Source of the DNA: a virus
Lineage: Duplodnaviria; Heunggongvirae; Uroviricota; Caudoviricetes
Direction: 5' to 3' (one strand)
DNA length: 41,599 nt
IMG/VR virus record: IMGVR_UViG_2740892231_000012
Shown: piece after piece, positions 1-40,847 of the stretch
Numbering within the stretch: position 1 is the first letter of the stretch
Layout of the letters: each line of letters starts with the position of its first letter
Made by a program: the position numbers and the translations under genes
Notes under the pieces: generated by a model
What the model saw: only the letters and a program-made list of their open reading frames with translations
Database searches by the model: none
What the model was told of the DNA's origin: nothing

Positions 1-285
1 ATGATTATCAATAACGTCAAACTGGTGCTGGAAAACGAAGTGGTACACGGTTCGCTGGAGGTGCAGGATGGCGAAATCCGCGCCTTTGCCGAAAGCCAGA
101 GCCGCCTGCCAGAAGCGATGGACGGCGAAGGTGGCTGGCTACTACCCGGCCTGATTGAGCTGCATACCGACAACCTCGATAAATTCTTCACCCCGCGCCC
201 GAAAGTCGACTGGCCCGCCCATTCGGCGATGAGCAGCCACGACGCGCTGATGGTGGCAAGCGGCATCACCACCGTGCTGGTATAG
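1..285 (+). pseudogene. phnM: 5' fragment (94 aa) of a phnM-like gene (phosphonate C-P lyase pathway), ending at a premature stop at the prophage junction
   Basis: Translation MIINNVKLVLENEVV...SGITTVL matches my recollection of the E. coli PhnM N-terminus (about 378 aa in full). The reading frame stops at 283-285, immediately before AT-rich phage-end sequence. Confidence 0.6.
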
Positions 286-4566: not shown

Positions 4567-4860
4567 AATAATCAGCCTGTTCCTGAATAAACTGAATTAT
4601 CATATCCACAGACCGATAAACGCCATTTTGCGTTAATTCAGTAAAGGCCCAACAAAGGGAGCGTCTTATTTTTCCGAAACGCTCGCAGGATAATAACGAT
4701 AAAGGGTTGAAAGGCCGATATCAAAAATAAGTGCCACCTGTCTTCGACTGACACCCCCGGCCAGTAAACGCCCAACCTGCTCGTATTGTTCCTGCGTGAG
4801 ACGGCGGGGTCTGCCGCCGGTTCGTCCCCTTTCACGGGCAGCNNNNNNNNNNAGAGCGTC

Positions 4861-5603
4861 TTATTTTTCCGAAACGCTCGCAGGATAATAACGATAAAGG
4901 GTTGAAAGACCGATATCAAAAATAAGTGCCACCTGTCTTCGACTGACACCCCCGGCCAGTAAACGCCCGACCTGCTCGTATTGTTCCTGCGTGAGACGGC
5001 GGGGTCTGCCGCCGGTTCGTCCCCTTTCACGGGCAGCTGCAAGACCAGCCCGTGTCCGTTCGACAATTAATTCACGCTCCATTTCTGCCAGCGCACCCAT
5101 TATGTGAAAAAAGAAGCGCCCCATGGGGGTTGACGTATCAATGTTGTCAGTAAGACTACGAAAATTTATCCCCTGTTGCTGTAATTCATCTGTCAGCGCA
5201 ACAAGGTGGCGCATACTGCGCCCCAGCCTGTCCAGTTTCCAGACCATCAGCGTGTCACCGGGTTTTAGTTTCTTCAGTGCCCGCTTCAGTCCCGGCCGCT
5301 GTGTCGTTTTACCACTCATTTTGTCTTCAAAAATCTGCTCACATCCTGCACATTCCAGCGCATTTCTTTGTAAACCGGTGTTNNNNNNNNNNACATACTG
5401 CGCCCCAGCCTGTCCAGTTTCCAGACCATCAGTGTGTCACCGGGTTTTAGTTTCTTCAGTGCCCGCTTCAGTCCCGGCCGCTGCGTTGTTTTTCCGCTCA
5501 TTTTGTCTTCAAAAATCTGCTCACATCCTGCACATTCCAGCGCATTTCTTTGTAAACCGGTGTTCTGGTCATTTGTTGATACGCGTATATAGCCAATCAG
5601 CAT
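4861..5603 (-). CDS. gin: Gin DNA invertase (serine recombinase); coordinates include an N10 gap at 5383-5392 and its duplicated flank
   Basis: MLIGYIRVSTNDQNT...GDTLMVWKLDRLGRSM...INFRSLTD...GRFFFHIMGALAEMERE is closely similar to Mu Gin / Hin-family invertases. A second copy of the gin 3' end at 4666-4842 is a gap-flank duplicate. Confidence 0.9.
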
Positions 5604-6158: not shown

Positions 6159-6810
6159 ATGCAACTGATTAATGTCAAACGATATTACCCGAAAGACAAA
6201 CCCTATGGTGAGGATGTTCAGTATTTCCAGAGTGAGGACGGAAGGGATTTTTATGAATCTATCCCGCTTTTTACAAAGAAATACAAACTCTGTATTTCGC
6301 CTGTAACGGGTATTATCTGCTCTGTTGCTGAAGATGTCTCTGCTTTATATCCGGCAGGTTTTACTGTTGTTGAAGTGGACGAACTGCCGGAAGGTGTGAA
6401 TATTGACGGTAACTGGCAGTTTTCTGATGGCCTGATATCAAAGGTGCCGGTAAACTGGAAGACGGTTGCTGAAAAGCGCCGCTCATCGCTGCTCCAGGAA
6501 GCCAACGAAACTGTGGATGACTGGAAAACGGAATTAAAACTGGACATGATTAGCGATGAAAATAAATTACAGCTGACGCGCTGGATGGCGTATATCCGNN
6601 NNNNNNNNTCGCTCATCGCTGCTCCAGGAAGCCAACGAAACCGTGGATGACTGGAAAACAGAATTAAAACTGGACATGATTAGCGATGAAAATAAATTAC
6701 AGCTGACGCGCTGGATGGCGTATATCCGACAGCTTAAAGAAATGCACCTTAATGATATTGCCAGTGAGGGGCATTACCAGGCGATTCCCTGGCCGGAAAA
6801 ACCGGAATAA
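6159..6810 (+). CDS. Tail-fibre assembly protein (U/Tfa family); includes N10 gap at 6599-6608 and duplicated flank
   Basis: Similar to Mu U: ...GIICSVAEDVSA..., ...FTVVEVDELPEG..., and C-terminal ...MISDENKLQLTRWMAYIRQLKEM...IPWPEKPE. Confidence 0.75.
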
Positions 6811-29292: not shown

Positions 29293-29879
29293 CCGCCGAA
29301 CGGCGGGCCTCAAGGCCGGGGAGTTTCACCCCCTTTGAATAAATCCAGCGGATATACTGCTTACAGGACGCGGGCATCTGCCCGGCATTGATCAGGCGCA
29401 GAAGCGTGGAGTTGCGGAAGTTCGTTTCACCGGCCCAGAAGATCCACGAAGCCAGCGCCACAGTCTGACCACGGGTAAGCGGCACCTGAACACGCCGATC
29501 AATGGCCGCAAAGGCCCATTTCATGTCCTTNNNNNNNNNNAAAGTTCGTTTCACCGGCCCAGAAGATCCACGAAGCCAGCGCCACCGTCTGACCACGGGT
29601 AAGCGGCACCTGAACACGCCGATCAATGGCCGCAAAGGCCCATTTCATGTCCTTTTCCAGTAGTTCCAGGCATTCTTCATCTGTCAGGGTCATACCCGGT
29701 TTCACATCCGGGCCGGTATGGCCGTAACAGATGGTGGGTGTACCGGTGGGATCGATATACGTGGAGTTTTCTTTCCCTTCCCAGTAACCGGTGTAATGCG
29801 TGGCAATCGTGAACGTCCCGGCACCGGCCAGAACAAGGGCAATCAGCTTTTTACGCAGTGGTGCGGGGAGTTTTGGCAT
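29255..29879 (-). CDS. SAR endolysin (lysozyme-like); includes N10 gap at 29530-29539 and duplicated flank
   Basis: N-terminal signal-anchor-release segment LIALVLAGAGTFTIATHY, then TICYGHTGPD... and ...VPLTRGQTVALASWIFWAGETNF..., similar to Mu Lys. Confidence 0.8.
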
Positions 29880-29950: not shown

Positions 29951-30376
29951 TCAGAAAAGTGGCGGTTGCGTTCTTGCCAGATGCAGACGGCGCTGTTCGC
30001 GTATGACGGTATAAATCTGGGTTTCTGACATCCGGTAATGGCGGCGAAGGGATTCAATTTTCTCGCCCCGGTCCCAGCGCGAAAATATCTCATTGTTTCG
30101 CAGCTCGGCAAAGAGAGATTCCCCGACCGGCAGGTAATAACCCCGTCCGCCCATATAGGCTGCCTGAGCCGCAGCCACCTTGCGTGCCAGTTTACCGGCC
30201 AGTACCGGCTCAATCCCCTGACGCTGAAGTTCTGCGCCGGTGACTTCAACCAGTTCTGACAGGGTCCGCGGCCAGTTCTTTTTGAGAACATCATCAGGGA
30301 TGTCATCAAGGCGGTCGATAAGGGCGTGCAGTTGCTCACTGTCACCACCAAACATGCTCATCTGAGTTTCTGCCAT
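29951..30376 (-). CDS. Mor/C-family late transcription activator
   Basis: 141 aa, immediately upstream of the endolysin as for Mu C; helix-turn-helix-like C-terminal region. Confidence 0.7.
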   Translation of the reverse strand: MAETQMSMFGGDSEQLHALIDRLDDIPDDVLKKNWPRTLSELVEVTGAELQRQGIEPVLAGKLARKVAAAQAAYMGGRGYYLPVGESLFAELRNNEIFSRWDRGEKIESLRRHYRMSETQIYTVIREQRRLHLARTQPPLF

Positions 30377-30445: not shown

Positions 30446-31139
30446 TTAACGGGGAAGTGATTTTTCATACTGCCTGCAAACGGCGTCATACCCCATCAGC
30501 GTGCGTTCGGGCATTCCCATCGCGGCCAGCATTTTGCGGCGGTGCCATCGCTTGAGACGCTCCAGCACATCTGAGGCCAGGGCGGGGTGTTGCTCCAGCC
30601 ACTGCCAGTTTGCCACACCTTCGCCGCCGTTCTGCGCGGCCGTCTGCGATTTCACCCAGCGGTTAAGAGCGGTTTCCGCACCATCAGAGATAAAGCCCTG
30701 CCGGTGCATCACTTTCCAGATGGCGCGAATTTTGGCGGTCACCGTACCCGGTTTTAAGGCCCGGTTAACCGGTTTCTGACGCACTTTAAAACCGCGTTTT
30801 TTGAAAACATCCAGCACGCGGGATAACTCATCCGGTGACATNNNNNNNNNNGGCGGTTTCCGCACCATCGGTGATAAAGCCCTGCCGGTGCATCACCTTC
30901 CAGATGGCGCGAATTTTGGCGGTCACCGTACCCGGTTTTAAGGCCCGGTTAACCGGGTTCTGACGCACTTTAAAACCGCGTTTTTTGAAAACATCCAGCA
31001 CGCGGGATAACTCATCCGGTGACATATCCCGGCAGCTGGTTTTGCCGGTAGCTGCCAGCAGCGCGGATGTATAAGTCTCATCATCCAGGGCAAGCTCGCG
31101 CTTTGCCACATGAATGGCGGATATCAGTTTTCCTCTCAT
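30446..31139 (-). CDS. gemA: GemA-like protein (Mu gp16 family); includes N10 gap at 30842-30851 and duplicated flank
   Basis: MRGKLISAIHVAKRELALDDETYTS...TGKTS...MSPDELSRVLDVFKKRGFKV fits the GemA family pattern. The track shows the same text on both sides of the gap. Confidence 0.65.
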
Positions 31140-31432
31140 ACCGTATTTACCTTTTTACGGACATGGAAAGCCTTTTCTGCCTCATCCCACCGGGCATGGT
31201 GTGTTGGCGGAATAATCATTATGTGCCAGCCATCTCTGCTTGTTATTCGGCAGAAAAATTCACCGTTATATAACACAATGGCCTGCTGAATGAGCGCATC
31301 AGCCGCCCGTTCAACCGGATGTCTTTTATCAAAAAAGCAGATGATTTTTCGACATAACCACCGGGTAATAACAAATGCGCCGAAAAAGGATGTGATATAT
31401 AAGCACCAGAACAACAGAGAACTATTGTCCAT
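31136..31432 (-). CDS. Small membrane-anchored hypothetical protein (98 aa), paralog 1
   Basis: N-terminal TM LFWCLYITSFFGAFVITRWLCRK; AAGGAG ahead of the ATG; diverged paralog of 31631-31927. Confidence 0.5.
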   Translation of the reverse strand: MDNSSLLFWCLYITSFFGAFVITRWLCRKIICFFDKRHPVERAADALIQQAIVLYNGEFFCRITSRDGWHIMIIPPTHHARWDEAEKAFHVRKKVNTV

Positions 31433-31630
31433 TATCTTTCTCCTTATTCACTCTTCTGCGGCATTCGGCACAGTCATCAGGGCTTTCAAATGTATCCGGC
31501 TCGCGATTATGAGCCAGATNNNNNNNNNNACTGGTTTTGCCGGTGACCGCCAGTAGTACGGATGTGTAGGTTTCATCATCCAGGGCAAGCTCGCGTTTTG
31601 CCACATGAATGGCAGATATCAGTTTCCCTC

Positions 31631-31927
31631 TCATGCTGTATCAACACTCCTGCGGATATGATAGGTATTATTTTCCCGATCGAGCTGAACCCGATACTCC
31701 GGAGGAATCACAAAAATATTAAAACCATCATCAGTTTTTATTCTTGAGTAGCATTCCCCCTTATGATATCTGGCCAGTGCATTAATCAGAGAAGTCGCCG
31801 CCTGCCCAATCAGGTATTTTTTATGAAAAATACTGATAACTTTCCGGCACAGCCATCGTGTAATGACGAATGCACCGAAAAAGGATGTGATATATAAATA
31901 CCAGAACAACTGCGAACTACTGTCCAT
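31631..31927 (-). CDS. Small membrane-anchored hypothetical protein (98 aa), paralog 2
   Basis: N-terminal TM LFWYLYITSFFGAFVITRWLCRK; preceded by a copy of the same 90-bp upstream segment and followed by a diverged copy of the gemA 5' end. Confidence 0.45.
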   Translation of the reverse strand: MDSSSQLFWYLYITSFFGAFVITRWLCRKVISIFHKKYLIGQAATSLINALARYHKGECYSRIKTDDGFNIFVIPPEYRVQLDRENNTYHIRRSVDTA

Positions 31928-32026
31928 TATCTTTCTCCTTATTCAGTCTTCTGCGGCATTCGGCACAGTCATCAGGGCTTTCAAATGTATCCGGCTCGCG
32001 ATTATGAGCCAGATNNNNNNNNNNGA

Positions 32027-32573
32027 CTATTCATTTGCTTTATCCTCCATGCTGGACAGAATCATATGTATTAATGTCGGGCGTGGAGATATACGCATTT
32101 CATTAAGCGTCTGAAGGGCAGCAACAGCTGCCTGTTTATCGGTGCCTTTGGCAATCTCTGCAAGAGAATGCACAATCCATAACGGACTTAACGCCACGGC
32201 TGAATCCAGAATCATGTCATCCATAATAATTTCTGGCATATCCCGCTTGTCACATTCTTCATCCATAAAAGAAACGATTTTTTCTGCTTCTTCCGGTTTC
32301 ATGCCTCCGGCGATGAGAATTTTACGATATTCATAAGACGATCTTAATTCAATACTNNNNNNNNNNTTCAGCAAGAGAATGCACAATCCATAACGGGCTT
32401 AACGCTACGGCTGAATGCAGAATCATGTCATCCATAATAATTTCTGGCATATCCCGTTTGTCACATTCTTTATCCATAAAAGAAACGATTTTTTCTGCAT
32501 CTTCCGGTTTCATGCCTCCGGCGATGAGAATTTTACGATATTCATAAGACGATCTTAATTCAATACTCATCAT
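32027..32573 (-). CDS. Hypothetical early protein (about 112 aa real length); includes N10 gap at 32357-32366 and duplicated flank
   Basis: MMSIELRSSYEYRKILIAGGMKPEDAEKIVSFMD... appears twice across the gap. Confidence 0.4.
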
Positions 32574-32585
32574 TCACCTGCCTGT

Positions 32586-32978
32586 TTAATCAGTTTCCAG
32601 TGCTTTGCTACGGGCAACAGCCTCACACTCAAAAAATACCGACTCCGGCACACGCTCCTTTAATTCACGAACAAGAAAATCATTAACGAGTTCATGACGT
32701 CTTATATTTCTTTCCTTTTCCTCCTGGCGCAATACAGCAAGGCGGTATTCAACAGTCCGGCGTTGTTTCTGAAAGACAGCCAGTGCTTTTCTGGCAGAGT
32801 TACGCCATGTATCATCGCCACAGGGTTCGTATTCAAGCTGAAATTTAATCTCTTCAATGGTTTCTTTTATTTTTGCCAGCAAGCTAAGACAGTCGCTGAT
32901 TGTCTTCAGTTTTTCATTATCAATATAACTTCTCACGCATTCACCTCCCGTCATTCCGGTAAAGCTGAAATATGGCAC
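32586..32978 (-). CDS. Hypothetical early protein
   Basis: 130-aa ORF in a co-oriented, tightly packed early-gene array. Confidence 0.4.
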   Translation of the reverse strand: MPYFSFTGMTGGECVRSYIDNEKLKTISDCLSLLAKIKETIEEIKFQLEYEPCGDDTWRNSARKALAVFQKQRRTVEYRLAVLRQEEKERNIRRHELVNDFLVRELKERVPESVFFECEAVARSKALETD

Positions 32979-33262
32979 CAGTGCGTCACCTGTCCGTCCT
33001 CATCTTCAAGGCAGGCTCCGGTTTCTTCATCAATAAAAAAGCCTTCATACCCCATATGGCCGATGCGCAGTTCCTGTTGGTCACCATACTGAACAATCAG
33101 CACGACAGCCTCCATATCAGGCGGAAATGCGTCATCCAGTGAATGCCAGGGATAACCGCGCAAATCCCCGAAATAAACACCGGTCAGCGTTCCGCCACAA
33201 ACCGACATTCCGGCGGCACATACCAGAGGCTCGTCTGATTCAACAAATAATGTCGTTATCAT
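32951..33262 (-). CDS. Hypothetical early protein
   Basis: 103-aa acidic ORF in the same array. Confidence 0.4.
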   Translation of the reverse strand: MITTLFVESDEPLVCAAGMSVCGGTLTGVYFGDLRGYPWHSLDDAFPPDMEAVVLIVQYGDQQELRIGHMGYEGFFIDEETGACLEDEDGQVTHWCHISALPE

Positions 33263-33810
33263 GGCATTAACTCCCGTAATACAACATCTTCGGCAGTCCG
33301 GCGATGGTGATAAATAAAATTCACCGTACTCTCGGATAATTCAAATTTCTCGCCTATTTCCCGGAAGGTAAGACGTCGTGGTGATTCAGCATCCCGTAAT
33401 TCACGAATAAGATGAACATCATCATCAGGTATACGGGTGAAGGGCAGCAACTCTCCGTATTTTTTCATGCTTACGCCAATATATCGCGCCCGTTTGTGGA
33501 CAGAATCCCGGTCTCGCCCCAGATATTCTCCTATTTGCTTACCGGTCATCGTTCTGGCATTTTTTCGGATAAATTTATCTTCATCATGTTTAAATCTTGG
33601 ACGTTTGCATTTGAGCAACTCCGGGTAAGTACCGCGTAATAAAACAATCCGGTTATGTACACCCCAGAAACTTCTTTTTACCCTGACAGCAATATCCTTA
33701 ACCGGGGTGGATGGATAAAGCGCAATCAGCAGTGCATCTTCTTCAGGTGTCCACGCACGGACATGAGCGGGTGCACGGCCTTTTCGCCCCATGGGTTGTA
33801 AAATCATCAT
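33259..33810 (-). CDS. Putative DNA-binding protein with repeated helix-turn-helix-like segments
   Basis: Three similar segments: WTPEEDALLIALY...IAVRV, MTGKQIGEYLGRDRDSVHKRARYIGV, LTFREIGEKFELSESTVNFI. Confidence 0.4.
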   Translation of the reverse strand: MMILQPMGRKGRAPAHVRAWTPEEDALLIALYPSTPVKDIAVRVKRSFWGVHNRIVLLRGTYPELLKCKRPRFKHDEDKFIRKNARTMTGKQIGEYLGRDRDSVHKRARYIGVSMKKYGELLPFTRIPDDDVHLIRELRDAESPRRLTFREIGEKFELSESTVNFIYHHRRTAEDVVLRELMP

Positions 33811-33813
33811 ACA

Positions 33814-34329
33814 TCACCCCCTGACTCGCTTTTCAGCAGCATAAAACTCATCAGACAGAATTTCGGTCATTTTCCGTTTTGCGGAATCATCTTCGCACTG
33901 AAGGTAAATAACATCGTCAACGCAGAACCACTTCACGGGACCATGCAATATTGCTGAAAAGTCAATGCCCAGCCAGAACAACAGGGCATCGGTTCTGGCA
34001 TACGTGACGGGCGAATATTCACGCCACAGACTGTTAAGTTCGTCAGAGGCAACGCGCAGGGCTTTGGGAATACGTGATGTGCGCGGTGTGCAGCTCCAGC
34101 CATTCGACGCAGTCGGTTTTCGCCATAAGTCGCGATGAAAAGGATATTTGTCATCCATAAAGCGCAGCCCTTTAAAACAAAAGCCACTGATACCGGATAC
34201 AAATACCGACCGGCACGCAACATTCAGCACGGCCTCAAGGCGTTTTGCCTCATCCTTAACTTTCTGGCAGTCCTGCTGATATTTTTGCCACGCGGCCAGC
34301 GCGGAAGGGTTTGATGTTTTAAAGAACAT
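33814..34329 (-). CDS. Hypothetical early protein
   Basis: 171-aa ORF translationally coupled to the upstream gene (shared base at 34329). Confidence 0.4.
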   Translation of the reverse strand: MFFKTSNPSALAAWQKYQQDCQKVKDEAKRLEAVLNVACRSVFVSGISGFCFKGLRFMDDKYPFHRDLWRKPTASNGWSCTPRTSRIPKALRVASDELNSLWREYSPVTYARTDALLFWLGIDFSAILHGPVKWFCVDDVIYLQCEDDSAKRKMTEILSDEFYAAEKRVRG

Positions 34330-34862
34330 TACGCCACCTCCGCAGATATCCCGGCAGGCGCGGCCGTCCGGTCAACAATCAGGTAACGCAGAACACGCGC
34401 GGTGATATTCCAGCCGCTTAAACCGCAGATGATGACACCCAGGCGTATGTCGATATACGCCATCACAAACTGGGGCACGCCTTCTTTCATGGCCTGCTCA
34501 TCAACTTCAGCCACCACATAAACGGTTTCGCAGGTCAGTACGCCCTGAGCAAATTCCCACGCCATCGACGGAATATCATGCCCCTCAATCCACGGCAGGG
34601 ACTTTCTGAAGCTGCACCACTGAACATCATCAGCCGCACATTCCTGGCTGCATTTGCGACGAACCGGCTGCACCGGGCGGGGACGCGGAATATCATAAAA
34701 ACCGTTACATTCCGTCAGCACCCCGGCATCAACCGCATCACGCAGAAAATAAACCATCGAGGATGGCGGCATATTCATTTTTTCAGCCAGAACACCGCAG
34801 GTCAGACGTCCGTAAATACGCAGCCAGTTTTTAACCCCTTCAAGCACTTTTGCATCAATCAT
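34329..34862 (-). CDS. Hypothetical early protein
   Basis: 177-aa ORF in the same coupled array. Confidence 0.4.
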   Translation of the reverse strand: MIDAKVLEGVKNWLRIYGRLTCGVLAEKMNMPPSSMVYFLRDAVDAGVLTECNGFYDIPRPRPVQPVRRKCSQECAADDVQWCSFRKSLPWIEGHDIPSMAWEFAQGVLTCETVYVVAEVDEQAMKEGVPQFVMAYIDIRLGVIICGLSGWNITARVLRYLIVDRTAAPAGISAEVA

Positions 34863-34865
34863 GAA

Positions 34866-35408
34866 TTATTCCTCCGTCAGCGCCACATATTCAGAATGTT
34901 TAATTTCCTGGCATTCTTCAGGAATACACCCTATTATTTCCCTGCCATAAGCGCCTACTTTAAACACCACGCACAGGGCATCACGGGAGAGCGACGGGGT
35001 CCACCAGGAGTCCGTGTTAAACATGGAGGGGATTCTCATTACCCCCAGCTTTTCACAGAGCCAGACAAGGAAATCAGGACGCTTTCTTAACTCACGTTCA
35101 GCGGTTTCAATCATTGCGGCAATCGCCGGACCTTCAGGGCATGACTCATCAGGTCTGGCAATAAAGCACGGTCCGTCCCCGATAAAAGCCACATCATCGC
35201 GCTTACGCCAGCCCGCAGGCAGAGCACCAGAAAAATAAAACTCACTGATTACGTCCATGGCAAACGGCTTTAAGCGCAATCCGGCAGCGCCTGTATTTTT
35301 CAGTAATGCCCGAAGAATACTGTTGCGTAGCGGTAAAACAGTCTGTTGATATTTGGTGAAATATTTATTTGTCTGCACACGGTCTAATTTGAAATAAAAA
35401 TATGCCAT
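34866..35408 (-). CDS. Hypothetical early protein
   Basis: 180-aa ORF in the same array. Confidence 0.4.
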   Translation of the reverse strand: MAYFYFKLDRVQTNKYFTKYQQTVLPLRNSILRALLKNTGAAGLRLKPFAMDVISEFYFSGALPAGWRKRDDVAFIGDGPCFIARPDESCPEGPAIAAMIETAERELRKRPDFLVWLCEKLGVMRIPSMFNTDSWWTPSLSRDALCVVFKVGAYGREIIGCIPEECQEIKHSEYVALTEE

Positions 35409-35505
35409 ATATCCTGTTCCTTATTTTCAGTTTACAGGCGCAGGCAGTCCCCTGACGCGAGCGCCATAATTAAAACGAAGTGATATTTAATTGATTAATG
35501 CGGTG

Positions 35506-36036
35506 TTATTTATTCAGTCCGGCGTCCTGTTCAAAAGGCTCGACATAAAAACTTTCAGCGCCTTTATTCACCTTAATACCGGCAATCCCTTTCACCGCAT
35601 CCGGCTCCGCCAGGACCGCTTCCTTGTTCACTTCCTCTTTCGTGCGGATAAAACGCTCAAGGCCCATACGGCGCAGCATTTCAATCACACCTTCCACATC
35701 ACGACTGACGCTGCATGATGGATTCCCCAGTCGCCATGACACCGTTCCGGTGGTCAGATTGGCAGTTTTGGTTTTGCCGCCGTTCGTCAGCTCATCACGG
35801 TTGGTTTTGCACCAGTCCTGAATCCCCTTAAAAAGCACTTTGATTTCTTTTTTAAGGTTTTCAATCTGCGGCGTATAACGGGCGGTGATTTCTGCCACTT
35901 CATCATTCATCGCTGTTTCCAGGCGCAGCGCCTCTCGCTGAATATCGCCCAGGGTGCGGATATCGCGGCTGACCTCTTCACGGGTCTGCGGTGCCGCCTC
36001 TGCTGCGGCCTTTAATTTTGTAACGCGTTTTGCCAT
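35506..36036 (-). CDS. gam: Gam host-nuclease inhibitor (Ku-like DNA end-binding protein)
   Basis: Close similarity to Mu Gam: ...LGDIQREALRLETAMNDEVAEIT..., ...WCKTNRDELTNGGKTKTANLTTGTVSWR..., ...LERFIRTKEEVNKEAVL.... Confidence 0.9.
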   Translation of the reverse strand: MAKRVTKLKAAAEAAPQTREEVSRDIRTLGDIQREALRLETAMNDEVAEITARYTPQIENLKKEIKVLFKGIQDWCKTNRDELTNGGKTKTANLTTGTVSWRLGNPSCSVSRDVEGVIEMLRRMGLERFIRTKEEVNKEAVLAEPDAVKGIAGIKVNKGAESFYVEPFEQDAGLNK

Positions 36037-36047
36037 TTTGTTTTTCC

Positions 36048-36341
36048 TTATTGCACTGTGCCTGATGCTTTATGCACGCGGTGGCGTTTAATGATGGCAT
36101 CCGCCCCAAAAGCCTGTACAGATGCCTGAAATTCCGCTGAGAGAAACTGAATAATTTCAGGGCTGTGATACTGGAGAATACTTGCATAAACGTCACAGAG
36201 TGACGTCGGCCTGTTATTCGTATCACGTTCTGTTTTTACATCCACACCAATCTTTTCATGCACTTCAACACAGTCATTGCCTGCCGGTTTTTCGTCATGC
36301 GAAACATGCTTAAATTCAAAAATAACGCGTACTTTGCTCAT
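36048..36341 (-). CDS. Small hypothetical early protein, tandem paralog A
   Basis: Starts MSKVRVIFEFKHVSHDEK; the adjacent gene starts MSKVVRIIFEYKEHVIHK. Confidence 0.45.
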   Translation of the reverse strand: MSKVRVIFEFKHVSHDEKPAGNDCVEVHEKIGVDVKTERDTNNRPTSLCDVYASILQYHSPEIIQFLSAEFQASVQAFGADAIIKRHRVHKASGTVQ

Positions 36342-36345
36342 GGAA

Positions 36346-36618
36346 TTACCCCTGCTGATTAAATTCATTACCTTTAATAACCCCGGAACGCATGCTCATA
36401 TCTTTCATGAGCGCACTGGCTTTCATTGCCACAAGTTCAGCAAAGTCTCTGCTTTCCGCGAGCATAACCACCCCAAAAATCATGGCGGGTCCATCACCTT
36501 TCTGCTTTATCCCGGTTGAACGTATGTCCAGACTTACCCCCATGCGCACTGTTCCATCAGCGTTTTTATGGATAACGTGCTCCTTGTATTCGAAAATAAT
36601 GCGTACGACTTTACTCAT
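36346..36618 (-). CDS. Small hypothetical early protein, tandem paralog B
   Basis: 90 aa; N-terminus paralogous to the gene at 36048-36341. Confidence 0.45.
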   Translation of the reverse strand: MSKVVRIIFEYKEHVIHKNADGTVRMGVSLDIRSTGIKQKGDGPAMIFGVVMLAESRDFAELVAMKASALMKDMSMRSGVIKGNEFNQQG

Positions 36619-36896
36619 CCTCTGGTCCTCGTTCTGTTTGGATAACTGACCCGGCGTCTGACCTCACGGCAGAACCGAATCATGGCATTAAAGGCTTCTT
36701 CCTCCGTCACCGCTTCCGGTATCCCCGGAACCAGTAACTGCTCCTGTTCATCACGTCCATGACGCGCCATAACCTCAATCACATGCCGTACCGTGGCAGG
36801 CTTTCCGGCAACTATCGGCAATGCACCTTCCGGCAGGACGTAACCAAACTCAATAAGACCACTCGACCACGCCCATGCAATGAGATTTTTTTTCAC
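36615..36896 (-). CDS. Hypothetical early protein
   Basis: 93-aa ORF coupled to neighbours. Confidence 0.4.
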   Translation of the reverse strand: MKKNLIAWAWSSGLIEFGYVLPEGALPIVAGKPATVRHVIEVMARHGRDEQEQLLVPGIPEAVTEEEAFNAMIRFCREVRRRVSYPNRTRTRG

Positions 36897-36897
36897 C

Positions 36898-37164
36898 TCA
36901 CACCTCCCAGTAAACCGTGCAGCCGCTGATGCGGGTGGCCTTCACACGGCGGCGCAGGCCGTTGGTCTGTATGGTGATTTCAATTTCACCGGTTCCCTGC
37001 ACGTTGCCTACCGGCGGCGTGGTTTTCAGTGCAAAACGTTGTGGGTAGCGCTTACTGCGTTCCAGTACCGCACCGGCAAGTTCGGTCAGACGGCGCGCGC
37101 TGTTCAGGGAGTCGAATAAATTCATTTTGTTACCGCAGGATTGCATATTCATATAACACCTCAT
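36898..37164 (-). CDS. Hypothetical early protein (candidate kil-region gene by position only)
   Basis: 88-aa ORF downstream of B in the early operon. Confidence 0.35.
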   Translation of the reverse strand: MRCYMNMQSCGNKMNLFDSLNSARRLTELAGAVLERSKRYPQRFALKTTPPVGNVQGTGEIEITIQTNGLRRRVKATRISGCTVYWEV

Positions 37165-37392
37165 TTAGCTGACTTGTTTCGCACCAACAGAACGGCATAT
37201 TCCGCTGTAAACTTCTGTCGCACCTTCGCGATCAAGTCCGGCAGATATCACCATTCGTGTGCGGTCATTAAATTCAAAAAGTAAATCGCCACATTCTTTA
37301 TTTTCGGCCAGTGAAATCACCTTCACGTTATCGAAATTAACCAGGTAAAAGCGTCCGTAAATATCAGGAATATAAAATACCGCCATAATCAC
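37165..37392 (-). CDS. Hypothetical early protein
   Basis: 75-aa ORF immediately downstream of B with ATGA overlap. Confidence 0.35.
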   Translation of the reverse strand: MIMAVFYIPDIYGRFYLVNFDNVKVISLAENKECGDLLFEFNDRTRMVISAGLDREGATEVYSGICRSVGAKQVS

Positions 37393-38321
37393 ACCTGTGA
37401 GAGTAATTCAGGGTTGGTATAAACCTCTTTAAAGGCCGCATTAATATGTTTTTCTGTCAGCGCCGCACCTTCACCGCTGGCGGTGAGCCACGCCTGGTTA
37501 AGCGTATGTGTCAGAACGCGTAACGCTCCCGGCTTTTCAGCGATAGCCTGCATGACGGCCAGCTCGGCCTCACCACTGATACCCCATGCCCTGGCAATGG
37601 CCAGCACATCCGCCTTTTTGGCCTTGCGAAGTTGTTTTGTACGGGCAAGACGGCTGAACAGGCGCGATAAATCATCAACGGCGCGGCGTCCACCTTTAAA
37701 CAATCCGCGCGGGTTACCAATAAGCACCATCCCGATCCCCGTGGCGTCCTGAATTGCCCGGAGTTGCTCCAGACCGTCAATACCAAGATGATCCGCCTCA
37801 TCCACAATCACCAGTCCACGCGTTCCCATCAGGCGACGGCGGATGGCGCGGGATAATGCCCCTTTGTTCGCGCGGGTGTAATCAATCCCCAGCGCATCGG
37901 CCAGCTCCAGCAGACACTCCGTGACGCTGGAGTGCGCGGGTGACAGGGTGATCATCCAGGTGTTTGGTTGCTCCTGGCAGTAATTACGGGCGGTGGCCGT
38001 TTTACCTACCCCCGGCACGCCCACAATGACGTTAATACAGCCCATCAGGCGAACCGCCTGAAACAGTGCGCGCAGCTCCTGAACTGTCTGCGTTTCCACA
38101 AACTGCGGCGGTTCCGGCAGTGCGCTTTGTTTATTCCAGTTCTCATACCAGGAACGCAGGGAAGCAGCCACAGCGGCGTTATCGCCTTTATATTTCCCCT
38201 TGCGGAAAGCCGATAATGTGCCGTCGGAAATTCCCGCCTCTCTGGCGATGGCATACTGCGTCAGTACGCCGCCATCAATAAGTTCATCAATGGTCTTGAT
38301 TACATCGTTAATATCAGTCAT
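37389..38321 (-). CDS. B: Transposition target-DNA activator B (AAA+ ATPase, MuB-like)
   Basis: 310 aa with N-terminal HTH region, Walker A GVPGVGKT and Walker B LVIVDEADHL; immediately downstream of the transposase. Confidence 0.9.
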   Translation of the reverse strand: MTDINDVIKTIDELIDGGVLTQYAIAREAGISDGTLSAFRKGKYKGDNAAVAASLRSWYENWNKQSALPEPPQFVETQTVQELRALFQAVRLMGCINVIVGVPGVGKTATARNYCQEQPNTWMITLSPAHSSVTECLLELADALGIDYTRANKGALSRAIRRRLMGTRGLVIVDEADHLGIDGLEQLRAIQDATGIGMVLIGNPRGLFKGGRRAVDDLSRLFSRLARTKQLRKAKKADVLAIARAWGISGEAELAVMQAIAEKPGALRVLTHTLNQAWLTASGEGAALTEKHINAAFKEVYTNPELLSQV

Positions 38322-38391
38322 ATTATTAACCTCTCATTTGATACCTTGTTTAATCAAATAACCTGAGTCGCCGCTCGGGTTATTTTTTATT

Positions 38392-40597
38392 TCAGGCCAG
38401 CGGGTCATTTTCTTTTAATTTCGCTTCGAGCAACTGCAATCCCCGCTGGAAATTGCGCTCGTATTCTTCATCAGGCTCATCATCAACGGCAGGTTGCTGA
38501 ACGGCCACCGTATTACCTACCGGGCGATAGATGTTTTCCAGCCAGGGCTCCTGCGGCTTGTGCTCCAGCACGTTGACAACCTCATCCTCGGCATCACGGA
38601 TTTTTTCCTCTGCGCGTTTACGCATGCCTTTAAGGCGTTGCTGCTGTTTGTAGTATTCCGCGCTAACCGGGAAGGCTTCGCGTTTATTACCGTCCCATAC
38701 CGCCTCGCAAATCACGCTGCCATCCAGGCGACGTACGGTAATTCGTTCGGCATCATGAATGTCATAGCTGATAAGCACCTTGCGGCCATGCTCATCACGC
38801 AGCTCGGGCGCGTAGTAAATATTATTCAGCCAGCGTATTTCACAGCGTCTTACAGGGCGTTCCACCATCGGCCGGAACATGTCCCGCAATTCCACATCGG
38901 ACAGCCATTCAATTTCCGTGTCCTCTTCCGCCAGGCGTTTTTTTCTGAACTCCGCCGGGCTGTAATGCTTGCCGTTCGGCTTCACCGGTAATTCATCGTG
39001 CGGCCGGTTGTTGTACCACTCAACACCATCACGAATGGCATCAATCAGTTCAGACCAGGACGGTAAATCACGCATCGCTGACTGCTGCCGGGCGTTCAGC
39101 CGTTTGCCCTGTTGCAGGGCAGTAAATGCCGAGCGTAAATCGCGGTTGGTTTTGCGTAACGTCTCGCGATCTGCACCTTTCCCGAAATAGGTGCGGTATT
39201 TACGGGCTATGCGCATCGGTAATGTGCGGTTAAGCCGTTCGATAATGCCTCGTCCCTGCGGATTACCGGCAATCCCGGTCGGGTGATTAATCCCCAGTCG
39301 CGGCAGTATCCCCACAACCTCCTTATCCAGGATGTCGGCGGTTTCCCCGGAGCCGTTATCCGAGTAATACAGAAACGGTTTGCCGTGATGGCGAATGCCG
39401 TGCTGTATGGCACCGGCTACGGCGAAAACATTTTCAGCCAGGTCAAGGCTCCAGCCCACCACAAAGCGCGTGCCACCGTCGATAACAAAGGTCACTTCCG
39501 GTGCAAATGGCCGACCGTGAACCGGGTGTGCGCATTTCAGCTTCATGCCGTGACCGTCACCAATCCAGACATAATTCACCGGCATTTTTGACCAGTCGCG
39601 GCGCGTGAATCCCTCAAGCTGGCGGTATTCACTGCCGGTCACCCGGCCTTTTTGTTTCACCACTTCCGGCAGTTTCTTCATTGCGCGGCGAATGGTGTCA
39701 TAAGACGGCATGATATCGAGCATATAAGGCTCATCAGCGTGCCGGTGCTGCCATTCAGCGACAAAATCCTCGTAAGCCTCGGTCATTGGTCGGCCGTTTG
39801 ACTGGCGATACTGCGCCAGAAATTCGGGCAGCCAGTTAATATCTTCGGCTTTTATTTCCTGGCGCTTACCCGGTGCCAGTAAAAGCAGGCGTTCAGCGGC
39901 GTTCTGCGCCTTGTTAAAGGCCGCAATCCAGCGTTTCAGCGTGATTTCACTTAACGCGCGGCTGTTTCCCTTTTTGGCGTTCGCCGTCTCAACCATTGCC
40001 ACAATGCGCTCGTCCAGCTGCGAACGNNNNNNNNNNTGCAATCCAGCGTTTCAGCGTGATTTCACTCAACGCACGGCTGTTTCCCTTTTTGGCGTTCGCC
40101 GTCTCAACCATTGCCACAATGCGCTCGTCCAGCTGCGAACGTGCCAGGTTGTCAACGATAAACCGGATAGCCTTCGCACAGCTGAAACCAGGTTGTTGCG
40201 CGACTTTCAGAACTTCGCTGACGATCGCGATTCGTGCATCAGCCACCTGGCGCTGGTTTTCAGTCAGGGCATTAAGGCGTTCGAGCATCAGTTGTGGTGA
40301 TCCGCGATATGCCTCCACCGCATCAACCACGGCAGGCGAGCGTCTGGCCTTTGTCACCACCGGAGCTGGTGATTCATCGGCTTTTTGCGTCATCAGTTGC
40401 AGGGCGTAGCGTTCACGTAATGCCTGCTGCGTCACTTCAGGTAAACAGTCGATGCTGTATTCAGTTGCTTTAGAGCCTGAGCGACGACGGGAACAACAGC
40501 TTTTCCCTTGTACGTAACGTTGTAATGCCTGGCGAATACCTTTTGTTGTAGCAGGCATTCCGGGCGCGCCAATCAGTTCTTTTGCAATGACATACAT
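38392..40597 (-). CDS. A: DDE transposase A (MuA-like); includes N10 gap at 40027-40036 and a duplicated flank of about 100 bp
   Basis: Long ORF downstream of ner, with MuA-like N-terminal DNA-binding region and catalytic core. The track shows ...ARSQLDERIVAMVETANAKKGNSRALSEITLKRWIA on both sides of the gap. Confidence 0.9.
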
Positions 40598-40598
40598 A

Positions 40599-40847
40599 TC
40601 ATGACGCCTTTCTCATATAGCTCTTAACCTGGTATCTACTGGGCCAGATTTCTTCAGGCGATACCCCAAGAGCATCAGCAATTATTTGCTGATACGGTCG
40701 GCAAGGAGTACGTAATACGCTTTTCAGCGAATCCCTGCTGTAACCAGCCTTTAAAGATAAAGAGCGCAGTGATAAGCCAGCCATGTGTAAGCGCGCCTTG
40801 ATGATTTCAGGCGGCCAATCGTGATCTGAAACTTCTCTTCTACTCAT
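40599..40847 (-). CDS. ner: Ner-like DNA-binding regulator
   Basis: 82 aa; ...AGLSLRSLSLKAGYSRDSLKSVL...QQIIADALGVSPEEIWPSRYQ resembles Mu Ner / Nlp. First gene of the early operon. Confidence 0.8.
   Translation of the reverse strand: MSRREVSDHDWPPEIIKARLHMAGLSLRSLSLKAGYSRDSLKSVLRTPCRPYQQIIADALGVSPEEIWPSRYQVKSYMRKAS

What the first reader, a model, noticed from the sequence alone, without database searches (positions are those of the whole stretch)
32027..37392. Semi-essential early region: about twelve small co-oriented ORFs of unknown function around gam
Between B and gemA lies a tightly coupled array in which only Gam is recognisable. It includes a tandem paralog pair (36048-36341 and 36346-36618, both starting MSKV[R/V]...IFE[F/Y]K) and a protein with three HTH-like segments (33259-33810). 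The equivalent Mu region encodes host-takeover functions, so this is the likeliest place in the window for undescribed anti-defence or host-manipulation genes.
Basis: partly seen in the sequence, partly recalled or inferred. Interest (0 to 1): 0.6.

Follow-up and report, generated by a model that had tools for sequence, protein, structure and literature searches.

The report
Early accessory genes of Mu-like prophage
This is the real but already catalogued "semi-essential" early operon of an Sp18-type Mu-like prophage of E. coli: about 15 small genes, of which only two (Kil, Gam) have a known role, so it is a reasonable but unproven hunting ground for host-takeover or anti-defence genes.

Summary
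The ORF array is real. Thirteen co-oriented, tightly coupled minus-strand ORFs lie in 32027-37392, and the intact operon has 15. All have Shine-Dalgarno-like sequences, strong PHROG matches and pN/pS of 0.08-0.52.

It is not new. ORFs e01-e10 are 95.6-100% identical to ECs_4947-ECs_4956 of prophage Sp18 of E. coli O157 Sakai. The region occurs in 232 of 5,426 complete E. coli genomes.

"Only Gam is recognisable" is too pessimistic:
- e02 is a Kil-family protein.
- e08 and e09 are Mu gp11 and gp12.
- e10 is a three-repeat Myb-like helix-turn-helix (HTH) protein related to Mu gp9.
- e07 is DUF5420-related.
- e05 is weakly gp7-like.

The three-HTH claim is confirmed. The "tandem paralog" claim is only partly supported (hhalign 89%, over 56 of 90 columns).

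The low end of the region (30842-32366) is an assembly artefact: N10 linkers, overlapping contigs and a second allele.

e03 belongs to a family of about 1,300 clusters labelled "host nuclease inhibitor". I traced that label to a frameshifted gam CDS in phage D3112, so it has no functional basis.

Related prophages swap cassettes at four slots. This fits accessory or host-takeover roles, but no ORF matches any known defence or solved protein. Function stays inferred.

The parts
37389..38321 (-). MuB-like AAA+ transposition protein (upstream anchor of the operon)
   Evidence: 310 aa, 99.7% identical to Sp18 ECs_4946. RefSeq calls it 'AAA family ATPase'.
37165..37392 (-). e01, 73-75 aa acidic protein of unknown function
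   Evidence: phrog_3375, E 1.8e-46. 98.6% identical to ECs_4947 and 55% to a Salmonella Mu-like prophage ORF in the same position. The start overlaps the B stop by 4 nt. pN/pS 0.29.
36898..37164 (-). e02, Kil-family protein (84-88 aa)
   Evidence: phrog_2679 'Kil', E 7.8e-46. 73% identical to a Salmonella protein carrying precomputed Pfam PF26843 Kil_protein. 33% identical to Mu Kil over 39 aa, and Mu Kil cross-hits phrog_2679 at E 9e-5.
36615..36896 (-). e03, 93-aa member of a large Mu-like-phage family mislabelled 'host nuclease inhibitor protein'
36346..36618 (-). e04, 90 aa, unknown function; probable distant paralog of e05
   Evidence: phrog_4107, E 1e-61. hhalign against the e05 family gives 89% probability, E 2.2e-6, over 56 columns. 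pN/pS 0.42.
36048..36341 (-). e05, 97 aa, unknown function; weakly Mu gp7-like
   Evidence: phrog_2230, E 1.4e-40. Mu gp7 hits phrog_2230 at E 0.009 over its full length. Only E. coli relatives at >=68% identity turn up in the word-indexed search, plus a 35%-identical Salmonella homologue. Two allele classes exist. pN/pS 0.52.
35506..36036 (-). Gam, Ku-like protein that protects double-stranded DNA ends
   Evidence: PF07352, E 1.5e-41. 57% identical to Mu Gam. pN/pS 0.08.
35409..35505 (-). 97-nt non-coding spacer after gam, partly conserved with the Mu gam-gp11 spacer
   Evidence: Its DNA aligns with Mu 6326-6406. Shared block TTTTAATTATGGCGC...GCGCCTG. The fold is not significant, z -0.63. 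No Rfam match.
34866..35408 (-). e07, 180 aa, divergent DUF5420-related protein in a variable slot between gam and gp11
   Evidence: phrog_2260, E 4e-74. 31% identical (E 1e-20) to a Salmonella PF17457 protein and 38% to its 182-aa neighbour. The alternative 196-aa allele hits PF17457 at 51.9 bits. e07 itself has no Pfam hit.
34329..34862 (-). e08, Mu gp11 homologue (weak winged-HTH match at the N-terminus plus Gp11_C)
   Evidence: 68% identical to Mu gp11. PF25754 Gp11_C, E 4.6e-40; HTH_20 is weak.
33814..34329 (-). e09, Mu gp12 homologue
   Evidence: 53% identical to Mu gp12. 50% identical to a Salmonella protein with precomputed PF26885 Phage_Mu_Gp12.
33259..33810 (-). e10, basic 183-aa protein with three tandem Myb/SANT-like HTH repeats; Mu gp9 matches repeats 2-3
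   Evidence: phrog_323, E 6e-58. 31% identical to Mu gp9 over residues 66-166. 723 representatives at E<=1e-3, many with 3-8 matched stretches. P0158 has 7 Pfam Myb_DNA-binding stretches, and one HSP aligns all three e10 segments to three consecutive repeats.
32951..33262 (-). e11, 103-aa acidic protein (pI 4.1); variable cassette
   Evidence: phrog_6925, E 2.4e-52. 81% identical to a Salmonella prophage ORF. Absent from Sp18.
32586..32936 (-). e12, 116 aa (RefSeq GTG start; the longest ORF runs to 32978), unknown function; variable cassette
   Evidence: phrog_6158, E 1.8e-57. Annotated in CV261. Absent from Sp18. e11+e12 occur in 160 of 274 prophage copies in complete E. coli genomes.
32027..32570 (-). 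e13, a 110-aa acidic protein in the intact reference; here split and partly duplicated across the N10 linker at 32357-32366
   Evidence: phrog_1988. The two pieces overlap by 67 aa at 95.5% identity. They map to L001 2870-3200 and 3001 onwards. 98% identical to ECs_4957.
30842..32024 (-). Assembly-artefact zone. It holds two alleles of the 98-aa N-terminally hydrophobic ORF e14 (31631-31927 and 31136-31432), two copies of the gemA 5' end, and the C-terminal half of a 65-aa Cys-containing ORF (31422-31519). N10 linkers sit at 30842, 31520 and 32015.
30446..31139 (-). gemA (gp16 family), split by an N10 linker with a 174-bp overlap
   Evidence: PF06252 on both halves. 98.8% identical to ECs_4960. 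Overlap shown.
29951..30376 (-). Mor-family middle-transcription activator (downstream anchor)
   Evidence: PF08765, E 2.8e-32. 100% identical to ECs_4961.

Best explanation
The region is the semi-essential early (SE) segment of the early operon of an Sp18-type Mu-like transposable prophage of E. coli.

Shown here:
- About 15 short genes sit on one strand directly after the transposition genes A and B and before gemA and mor.
- They are packed with overlapping or near-abutting stop and start codons and their own ribosome-binding sites. This fits one polycistronic, translationally coupled message.

Inferred from phage Mu:
- The message starts at the early promoter once the repressor is lost.
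- Its products act in the first minutes of lytic growth.
- The Kil-family protein e02 disturbs host division and viability.
- Gam caps double-stranded DNA ends against RecBCD-type nucleases.
- The basic three-repeat Myb-like protein e10 (Mu gp9-like), and perhaps the gp11 homologue (only a weak winged-helix match), bind DNA.
- GemA and Mor follow.

The remaining genes (e01, e03, e04, e05, e07, e11-e14) are conserved proteins of unknown function. Several occupy slots where related prophages carry different cassettes. Their most likely role is dispensable modulation of the host (takeover, counter-defence or exclusion), not core replication. No specific target is shown for any of them.
For: Identity and layout:
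- ORF map.
- Gam, Gp11_C, GemA and Mor Pfam hits.
- Mu homologies: Gam 57%, gp11 68%, gp12 53%, gp9 31%, Kil weak.
- 95.6-100% identity to Sp18 ECs_4947-4956 in the same order.
- 232 of 5,426 complete E. coli genomes carry the region at >=90% identity.

Coding and coupling:
- Spacings of -4 to +15 nt and Shine-Dalgarno-like sequences.
- pN/pS 0.08-0.52.
- PHROG hits for every ORF.

Family assignments:
- Kil.
- DUF5420 relation of e07.
- Myb-like repeats of e10.

Accessory character:
- Cassette exchange at four slots among 20 related loci.
- The alternative cassettes include Mu gp8-like and gp14-like ORFs.
- Copy counts in complete E. coli genomes: gam 274, e03 257, e07 245, e11-e12 160.
- G+C falls to 41-47% in 31-34 kb, against 55-60% in the late genes.

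Literature:
- The functions of the corresponding 'semi-essential' genes of Mu are described as largely unknown (PMC3820752).
- Sp18 is intact and its DNA is packaged (PMC2669165).
Against: - No transcription data were examined, so the single-operon reading and its timing are carried over from Mu.
- The Kil assignment rests on family membership. Identity to Mu Kil is only 33% over 39 residues.
- No ORF of unknown function has a hit to a defence, anti-defence or solved protein, so 'host modulation' is a default inference.
- In complete E. coli genomes most copies carry the same cassettes (e03 94%, e07 89%), so turnover is moderate rather than rapid.
Confidence: 0.85

Rival explanations
1. The region is chiefly a counter-defence island. 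Several unknown ORFs (for example the acidic e01, e11 and e13, plus e03, e04/e05 and e07) directly inhibit bacterial immune systems such as restriction, RecBCD-linked, abortive-infection or signalling systems.
For: - They sit in the early operon next to Gam, a known nuclease antagonist.
- Cassettes are exchanged among close relatives.
- pN/pS is higher for e04, e05 and e14 (0.42-0.52) than for the core genes (0.08-0.18).
- The proteins are small and sometimes very acidic (pI 4.1-4.9).
- The e11-e14 segment has low G+C.
Against: - No similarity to any solved protein, and so to none of the anti-defence proteins whose structures are solved.
- No PHROG with an anti-restriction or anti-defence label.
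- I could run no anti-defence HMM library.
- e03, e07 and e01 are conserved across Salmonella, Pseudomonas and Burkholderia phages. That looks more like a general phage function than a strain-specific counter-measure.
Confidence: 0.35
2. Most of the unknown ORFs are auxiliary replication, transposition or regulation factors of the phage itself. In classical Mu genetics these correspond to the arm, cim, lig/gem and sot functions. On this reading they are neither host-takeover nor anti-defence genes.
For: - DNA-binding folds are present: three Myb-like repeats in e10, a weak winged-HTH match in e08, and GemA and Mor downstream.
- gp11, gp12, e03 and the DUF5420-like genes are conserved in order across distant Mu-like phages.
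- The core genes are under strong purifying selection.
Against: - By established knowledge the region is dispensable for Mu plaque formation.
- Slots are filled by unrelated cassettes or left empty (e07 is absent in several loci and in Mu itself). That is hard to reconcile with a required mechanistic role.
Confidence: 0.3
3. Some of the small ORFs are expressed from the prophage and benefit the lysogen, for example through superinfection exclusion or membrane functions.
For: - One e14 allele has an N-terminal hydrophobic segment (Kyte-Doolittle 1.82). The Sp18 cassette ECs_5772 is a 61-aa strongly hydrophobic protein (2.79).
- Low-level Pe/Pe* transcription through the SE genes in Mu lysogens has been proposed to benefit the host (PMC3820752).
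Against: - No PADLOC hit above noise.
- No independent promoter above chance inside the region: 9 promoter-like sites against 10.8 expected.
- All genes are co-oriented with the lytic early operon.
Confidence: 0.15
4. The array is partly an artefact: chance ORFs, or duplications created by assembly.
For: Fifteen N10 linkers, overlapping contig ends and a second allele create false duplications at 30842-32366.
Against: - For 32367-37392 the sequence is one contig, 99% identical over 7.66 kb to a finished genome.
- Every ORF is annotated in finished genomes.
- Every ORF has a PHROG family and pN/pS well below 1.
Confidence: 0.03

Closest known systems
Prophage Sp18 (Mu-like) of E. coli O157:H7 Sakai, genes ECs_4947-ECs_4960
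   Same: Same gene order. e01-e10 are 95.6-100% identical at the protein level, as are e13, the 65-aa ORF, one e14 allele, gemA and mor.
   Different: - Sp18 has a 61-aa hydrophobic ORF (ECs_5772) where the window has e11+e12.
- The window also contains a second, 50%-identical allele of ECs_4959, from a co-resident copy.
- Sp18 is inserted in sorM. This copy abuts phnM.
Semi-essential early region of phage Mu (kil/gp5 to gemA/gp16) and its relatives D108 and SfMu
   Same: - Position between B and gemA/mor, on the same strand.
- Gam (57%), gp11 (68%), gp12 (53%), a gp9-type Myb-repeat protein and a Kil-family protein are present.
- A conserved non-coding block follows gam.
   Different: - No detectable homologues of Mu gp6, gp8, gp13, gp14 or gp15 in this copy. 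gp8-like and gp14-like cassettes do occur in sister prophages.
- The gp9-like gene has three repeats instead of two and lies after gp12 instead of before gam.
- e01, e03, e04, e07 and e11-e14 have no detectable Mu counterpart.
Early regions of Salmonella Mu-like prophages (loci L086-L088)
   Same: The order B, e01-like, Kil, e03-like, e05-like, Gam, e07-like/DUF5420, gp11, gp12, e11-like is shared, at 35-81% identity.
   Different: - They have a gp8-like 136-aa ORF.
- They carry two tandem DUF5420-type genes.
- Some replace Gam with DUF3164.
- They have no e04.
Early regions of Pseudomonas D3112/JBD/DMS3-type transposable phages
   Same: They contain Gam (54% identical) and an e03-family gene (43-50% identical).
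   Different: - There the e03-family gene follows gam directly, with the gam stop separated from its ATG by 1 nt. Here it precedes gam and follows kil.
- No other SE gene of the window was detected there.

Membership tests
Mu-type semi-essential early region | Lies between transposition gene B and gemA/mor, on the same strand as A and B | tested here: met
   ORF map. GemA and Mor Pfam hits. MuB homologue in RefSeq annotation and Sp18 comparison.
Mu-type semi-essential early region | Contains Mu Gam (PF07352) | tested here: met
   E 1.5e-41, above the curated cut-off. 57% identical to Mu Gam.
Mu-type semi-essential early region | Kil-family gene close to B | tested here: met
   phrog_2679 'Kil', E 7.8e-46. 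73% identical to a PF26843 Kil_protein carrier. Similarity to Mu Kil itself is weak. The killing phenotype was not tested.
Mu-type semi-essential early region | gp11-gp12 pair downstream of gam | tested here: met
   68% and 53% identity to Mu gp11 and gp12. Gp11_C, E 4.6e-40.
Mu-type semi-essential early region | Dispensable for plaque formation ('semi-essential') | not testable with these tools
   Needs deletion genetics. Only indirect support: cassettes are absent or exchanged in sister prophages.
Tandem paralogs (e04/e05) | Significant similarity over most of both proteins | tested here: inconclusive
   - BLAST finds only 17 residues (E 0.02).
- Shuffle z-score is 5.0 with the N-terminus and 0.0 without it.
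- hhalign gives 89% probability, E 2.2e-6, over 56 of 90 columns.
- No PHROG cross-hit.
- The two 5' ends are only moderately similar at DNA level, with many third-position differences, so this is not a recent duplication.
Myb/SANT-like HTH repeat proteins (Mu gp9 / phrog_323) | Tandem ~47-50-residue three-helix repeats starting with a W/F-x-x-[ED]-[ED]-D motif | tested here: met
   - phrog_323, E 6e-58.
- One HSP aligns the three e10 segments with three consecutive repeats of P0158, which has 7 Pfam Myb_DNA-binding stretches (E 2e-41).
- On e10 itself the Pfam Myb and HTH hits stay below the curated cut-offs.
- The single-sequence AlphaFold2 model is poor (pLDDT 43). Repeat 2 reaches block-mean pLDDT 70-77 over residues 81-110 and is modelled as three helices.
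Host nuclease inhibitor (Gam) - label carried by e03 | Homology to Mu Gam (PF07352) or lambda Gam, or evidence of nuclease inhibition | tested here: not met
   - No Pfam or NCBIfam hit.
- The label traces to the D3112 'gam' CDS. There a one-base frame change fuses Gam (residues 1-161) to the downstream e03-family ORF (173-263). Other phages keep two separate genes.
MbtH-like proteins (considered for e03) | MbtH fold plus the Pfam MbtH sequence signature | tested here: not met
DUF5420 (PF17457) - considered for e07 | Scores above the Pfam gathering threshold | tested here: not met
   e07 has no Pfam hit at E<=0.1. It is still homologous to members: 31% identity, E 1e-20, to a Salmonella PF17457 protein, and jackhmmer links it to the 196-aa allele that scores 51.9 bits. 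It is therefore a divergent relative.
Known anti-defence proteins | Sequence or structure similarity to a characterised inhibitor of a bacterial defence system | tested here: not met
   - No PDB sequence relatives at E<0.01 for any unknown ORF.
- No relevant PHROG label.
- e03 fold searches gave nothing relevant.
- No dedicated anti-defence HMM library was available.
Known anti-defence proteins | Restores phage growth on a host carrying a defence system | not testable with these tools
   Requires experiments.

The most novel reading that the evidence does not exclude
At least one unknown-function cassette inhibits a host defence or repair pathway by a mechanism not yet described. The most likely candidates are the e03 family, the acidic e11 and e13, and the e04/e05 pair.

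e03 is the best candidate:
- Its family has about 1,300 sequence clusters in Mu-like and some other phages of Proteobacteria.
- It has no Pfam family.
- It gives a confident compact beta-beta-beta-alpha...alpha model.
- It always sits next to kil or gam.
- It carries a functional label that is only an annotation artefact.
Probability: 0.3. Interest if true: 0.55.

Novelty: already known. Interest (0 to 1): 0.27.

Why it matters
If some of these small early proteins prove to be host-takeover or counter-defence factors, they would add new inhibitors from a prophage family present in about 4% of complete E. coli genomes, mostly Shiga-toxin-producing strains.

As it stands, the value of this check is mainly corrective:
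- The region is the known Sp18/Mu semi-essential region.
- Half of its genes can be placed in named Mu-lineage families.
- The low-coordinate end is a scaffolding artefact.
- The widely propagated name 'host nuclease inhibitor protein' for the e03 family has no functional basis.

Tried and rejected
- **e07 as a paralog of e09/gp12.** The N-termini looked alike by eye. hhalign gave 1% probability, so I rejected it. e07 is DUF5420-related instead.
- **The D3112 Gam-e03 'fusion' as Rosetta-stone evidence that the two proteins work together.** Rejected. Junction comparison shows a one-base frame change in that record, and separate genes elsewhere.
- **e04 or e05 as Mu gp7.** The only support is one weak PHROG hit (E 0.009). 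hhalign with shallow profiles gave 0.1-0.3%. I keep it as a weak lead.
- **Internal repeat detection in e10 with shallow segment profiles.** Failed. The exhaustive search settled the question instead.
- **Single-sequence AlphaFold2 of e10.** Too poor to use (pLDDT 43).
- **First two word-indexed homologue searches (e05, e03).** They returned only close E. coli relatives.
- **The gam-e07 spacer as a structured RNA or terminator.** Fold z-score is -0.63, with no Rfam match and no terminator-like site.
- **PADLOC.** Only one sub-threshold homing-endonuclease hit, on e10, which I treat as noise.
- **BFVD fold search of e03.** No match at E<=0.001. The afdb50 library was unavailable.
- **Literature searches for functional work on Mu gp6-gp12 or ECs_4947-4957.** Nothing relevant found.

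Full report
**What the window is.** The window holds almost a whole Mu-like prophage in reverse orientation.
- Repressor: from 40886 on the plus strand.
- Minus strand: ner 40599-40847, transposase A 38392-40597, B 37389-38321, the array in question, gemA 30446-31139, mor 29951-30376, lysozyme 29499-29879.
- Mom/com and the right end lie near position 281, next to host phnM.

The sequence is a pseudo-scaffold. It has 15 runs of exactly ten N. The pieces either overlap their neighbours by 104-200 bp relative to a finished genome, or are a second allele of the same interval.

**Observation check.** Between B and position 32027 there are 13 minus-strand ORFs of 75-183 codons.
- Stop-to-start distances are -4, 0, +1, -4, +4, +11, +97, +3, -1, +3, -4, +14 and +15 nt.
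- Almost every start is preceded by a GGAG/GAGG/AGGA-type sequence.
- Every ORF matches a PHROG family at E 1e-27 to 1e-105.
- Every ORF is annotated in finished genomes.
- Against alleles from 80 related IMG/VR loci, pooled pN/pS is 0.08 for gam, 0.14-0.18 for e03, gp11 and gp12, and 0.21-0.52 for the others.

So the array is real and protein-coding.

The contig 32367-40026 is 99.0% identical over 7,660 bp to E. coli CV261. Below 32367 the picture is an artefact:
- e13 is split by a linker, and its two halves overlap by 67 residues at 95.5% identity.
- About 91 bp of the reference, inside a 65-aa ORF, are missing.
- The interval holding the 98-aa ORF and the gemA 5' end appears twice. One copy is 99.6% identical to the reference and the other 76.7%.
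- The source genome therefore probably carries two or more related Mu-like prophages. Complete E. coli genomes hold up to four copies.

**Already known.** The proteins e01-e10 are 95.6-100% identical, in the same order, to ECs_4947-ECs_4956 of prophage Sp18 of E. coli O157:H7 Sakai. e13, the 65-aa ORF, one e14 allele, gemA and mor match ECs_4957-4961. Only e11 and e12 differ. Sp18 has a 61-aa hydrophobic ORF (ECs_5772) there, whereas CV261 and 160 of 274 copies in complete genomes have e11-e12. The region is present at >=90% identity in 232 of 5,426 complete E. coli genomes. [quoted passage not shown]

**Gene by gene.**
- **e02** is a Kil-family protein. It hits phrog_2679 at E 7.8e-46 and is 73% identical to a Salmonella protein carrying Pfam PF26843. 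It cross-hits weakly with Mu Kil.
- **Gam** is unambiguous.
- **e08 and e09** are Mu gp11 and gp12.
- **e07** fills a slot that is empty in Mu. It is a divergent relative of DUF5420.
- **e05** has a 35%-identical Salmonella homologue and a weak full-length link to Mu gp7 through phrog_2230.
- **e01 and e11** have Salmonella homologues at 55% and 81% identity.
- **e04, e12, e13 and e14** have only PHROG families of unknown function.
- No unknown ORF has a sequence relative among solved structures, a curated NCBIfam name or a PADLOC match above noise.

**The paralog claim.** e04 and e05 share MSKV(V)R(I/V)IFE(Y/F)K(E)HV.H.
- The local alignment score is 5.0 SD above shuffles, but 0.0 SD once the first ~20 residues are removed.
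- Profile comparison gives 86% probability over 32 columns. After adding the Salmonella homologue it gives 89%, E 2.2e-6, over 56 of 90 columns.
- The two 5' ends are only moderately similar at DNA level, with many third-position differences, so this is not a recent duplication.

I read them as probable old paralogs. It is not proven.

**The three-HTH claim.** An exhaustive HMMER search with e10 found 723 representatives at E<=1e-3. Many are 300-865-residue proteins matched in 3-8 separate stretches, mostly by e10 residues ~17-115. One of them, P0158, has seven Pfam Myb_DNA-binding stretches (E 2e-41). A single BLAST alignment lays e10 segments 20-62, 73-112 and 124-160 onto three consecutive repeats of it. 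Mu gp9 corresponds to repeats 2-3. The claim holds: e10 is a basic (pI 10.0) protein of three Myb/SANT-like repeats, and presumably binds DNA.

**e03.** RefSeq and PHROGs call this 93-aa protein 'host nuclease inhibitor'.
- With a profile of diverse homologues, the family has 1,303 clusters in Pseudomonas, Burkholderia, Bordetella and many enterobacteria. It has no Pfam domain.
- It also occurs in non-Mu phages such as BcepMigl.
- In the D3112 GenBank record the 'gam' CDS is 266 aa: Gam (1-161) plus an e03 domain (173-263; hhalign 99.9%).
- Comparing that junction with three related contigs shows that D3112 differs by a frame change. Elsewhere gam ends in TGA, and one base later the e03-type ORF starts.
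- So the label is very probably carry-over from that fused annotation, not evidence of function.
- Its constant position next to kil (enterobacteria) or gam (Pseudomonas) is the only functional hint. Salmonella prophages that replace Gam with DUF3164 keep it.

**Mosaicism.** I compared 20 Sp18-type loci that span B to gemA.
- Near-constant genes: B, e01, e02, e04, gam, gp11, gp12, e10 (two allele classes) and gemA.
- Slot 1: e03 present or absent; 5 of the 8 loci that lack it carry a 139-aa Mu gp8-like ORF between e01 and e02.
- Slot 2: e07, a 196-aa DUF5420 allele, or nothing.
- Slot 3: e11-e12, or a 61-aa membrane ORF.
- Slot 4: e13, the 65-aa ORF and e14, or a set that includes a Mu gp14-like ORF.
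- e05 has two allele classes or is absent.
- G+C falls to 41-47% over 31-34 kb, against 55-60% in the late genes.

This is the pattern of an accessory region. In complete genomes, however, most copies share the window's cassettes.

**How it most likely works.**
- Shown: gene content, coupling, selection and family placement.
- Inferred from Mu biology: transcription from the early promoter with A and B; Kil-mediated interference with host division; Gam protection of DNA ends from RecBCD; dispensability.
- Inferred from fold: DNA binding by e10 and possibly e08.
- The remaining ORFs most plausibly modulate the host. Whether any is an anti-defence protein is open; I put about 0.35 on at least one being so.

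**Verdict.** This is a correct but generic pointer to a known block of unknown-function genes. It is ordinary in kind and already in databases since the Sakai genome, with no feature that a specialist would find surprising. The useful by-products are the artefact diagnosis, the family assignments, and the debunked 'host nuclease inhibitor' label on a large orphan family.

Noticed in passing
whole window; N runs at 4843, 5383, 6599, 13958, 18920, 25832, 26752, 27319, 29093, 29531, 30842, 31520, 32015, 32357 and 40027: The window is a pseudo-scaffold. It has 15 linkers of exactly 10 N. Neighbouring pieces overlap by 104-200 bp relative to a finished genome, or are a second allele of the same interval. 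This creates false duplications and chimeric ORFs across the linkers. The source genome probably holds two or more related Mu-like prophages.
   Followed up: yes
L083 (Pseudomonas phage D3112, AY394005) 3976-4776; compare L048, L050 and L067: The deposited D3112 'gam' CDS (266 aa) fuses Gam to the downstream e03-family ORF through a one-base frame difference. Related contigs have two genes separated by TGA plus 1 nt. This is the likely origin of the 'host nuclease inhibitor protein' name on about 1,300 unrelated small proteins.
   Followed up: yes
window 35409-35505 (minus strand): The only sizeable non-coding gap in the operon (97 nt, after gam) shares a ~60-nt block (TTTTAATTATGGCGC...GCGCCTG, with a GGCGC/GCGCC hairpin) with the Mu gam-gp11 spacer. 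e07 is inserted between this block and the gp11 homologue. There is no T-run, the fold is not significant, and there is no Rfam hit. Function unknown.
   Followed up: partly
window 38356-38385: A 13-bp-stem hairpin lies between the stop of transposase A and the start of B. The terminator scan picked it up on the plus strand, where it is followed by a T-rich tail. It could act on the early transcript as an attenuator or processing site.
   Followed up: no
L086 and L088 (Salmonella Mu-like prophages) 4572-5215: Some Salmonella Mu-like prophages carry a DUF3164 (PF11363) gene exactly where their sisters carry Gam (PF07352). Kil, the e03-like gene, DUF5420, gp11 and gp12 stay around it. This looks like a functional replacement of Gam.
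   Followed up: no
window 1-285 and 409-1146: The first ~280 bases are host phnM. The prophage right end, with Mom (409-1146) and Com, follows. So this copy is inserted at or in phnM, unlike Sp18 of Sakai, which interrupts sorM.
   Followed up: partly
L038 9171-9422: One related viral contig has a hybrid ORF that joins the N-terminal two-thirds of e01 to the C-terminal third of e03, deleting the Kil-family gene between them.
   Followed up: no
window 32951-33262, 32027-32570 and 37165-37392: e11 (pI 4.1), e13 (pI 4.7) and e01 (pI 4.9) are small and markedly acidic. Some DNA-mimic anti-restriction proteins share this property, but nothing else links them.
   Followed up: no
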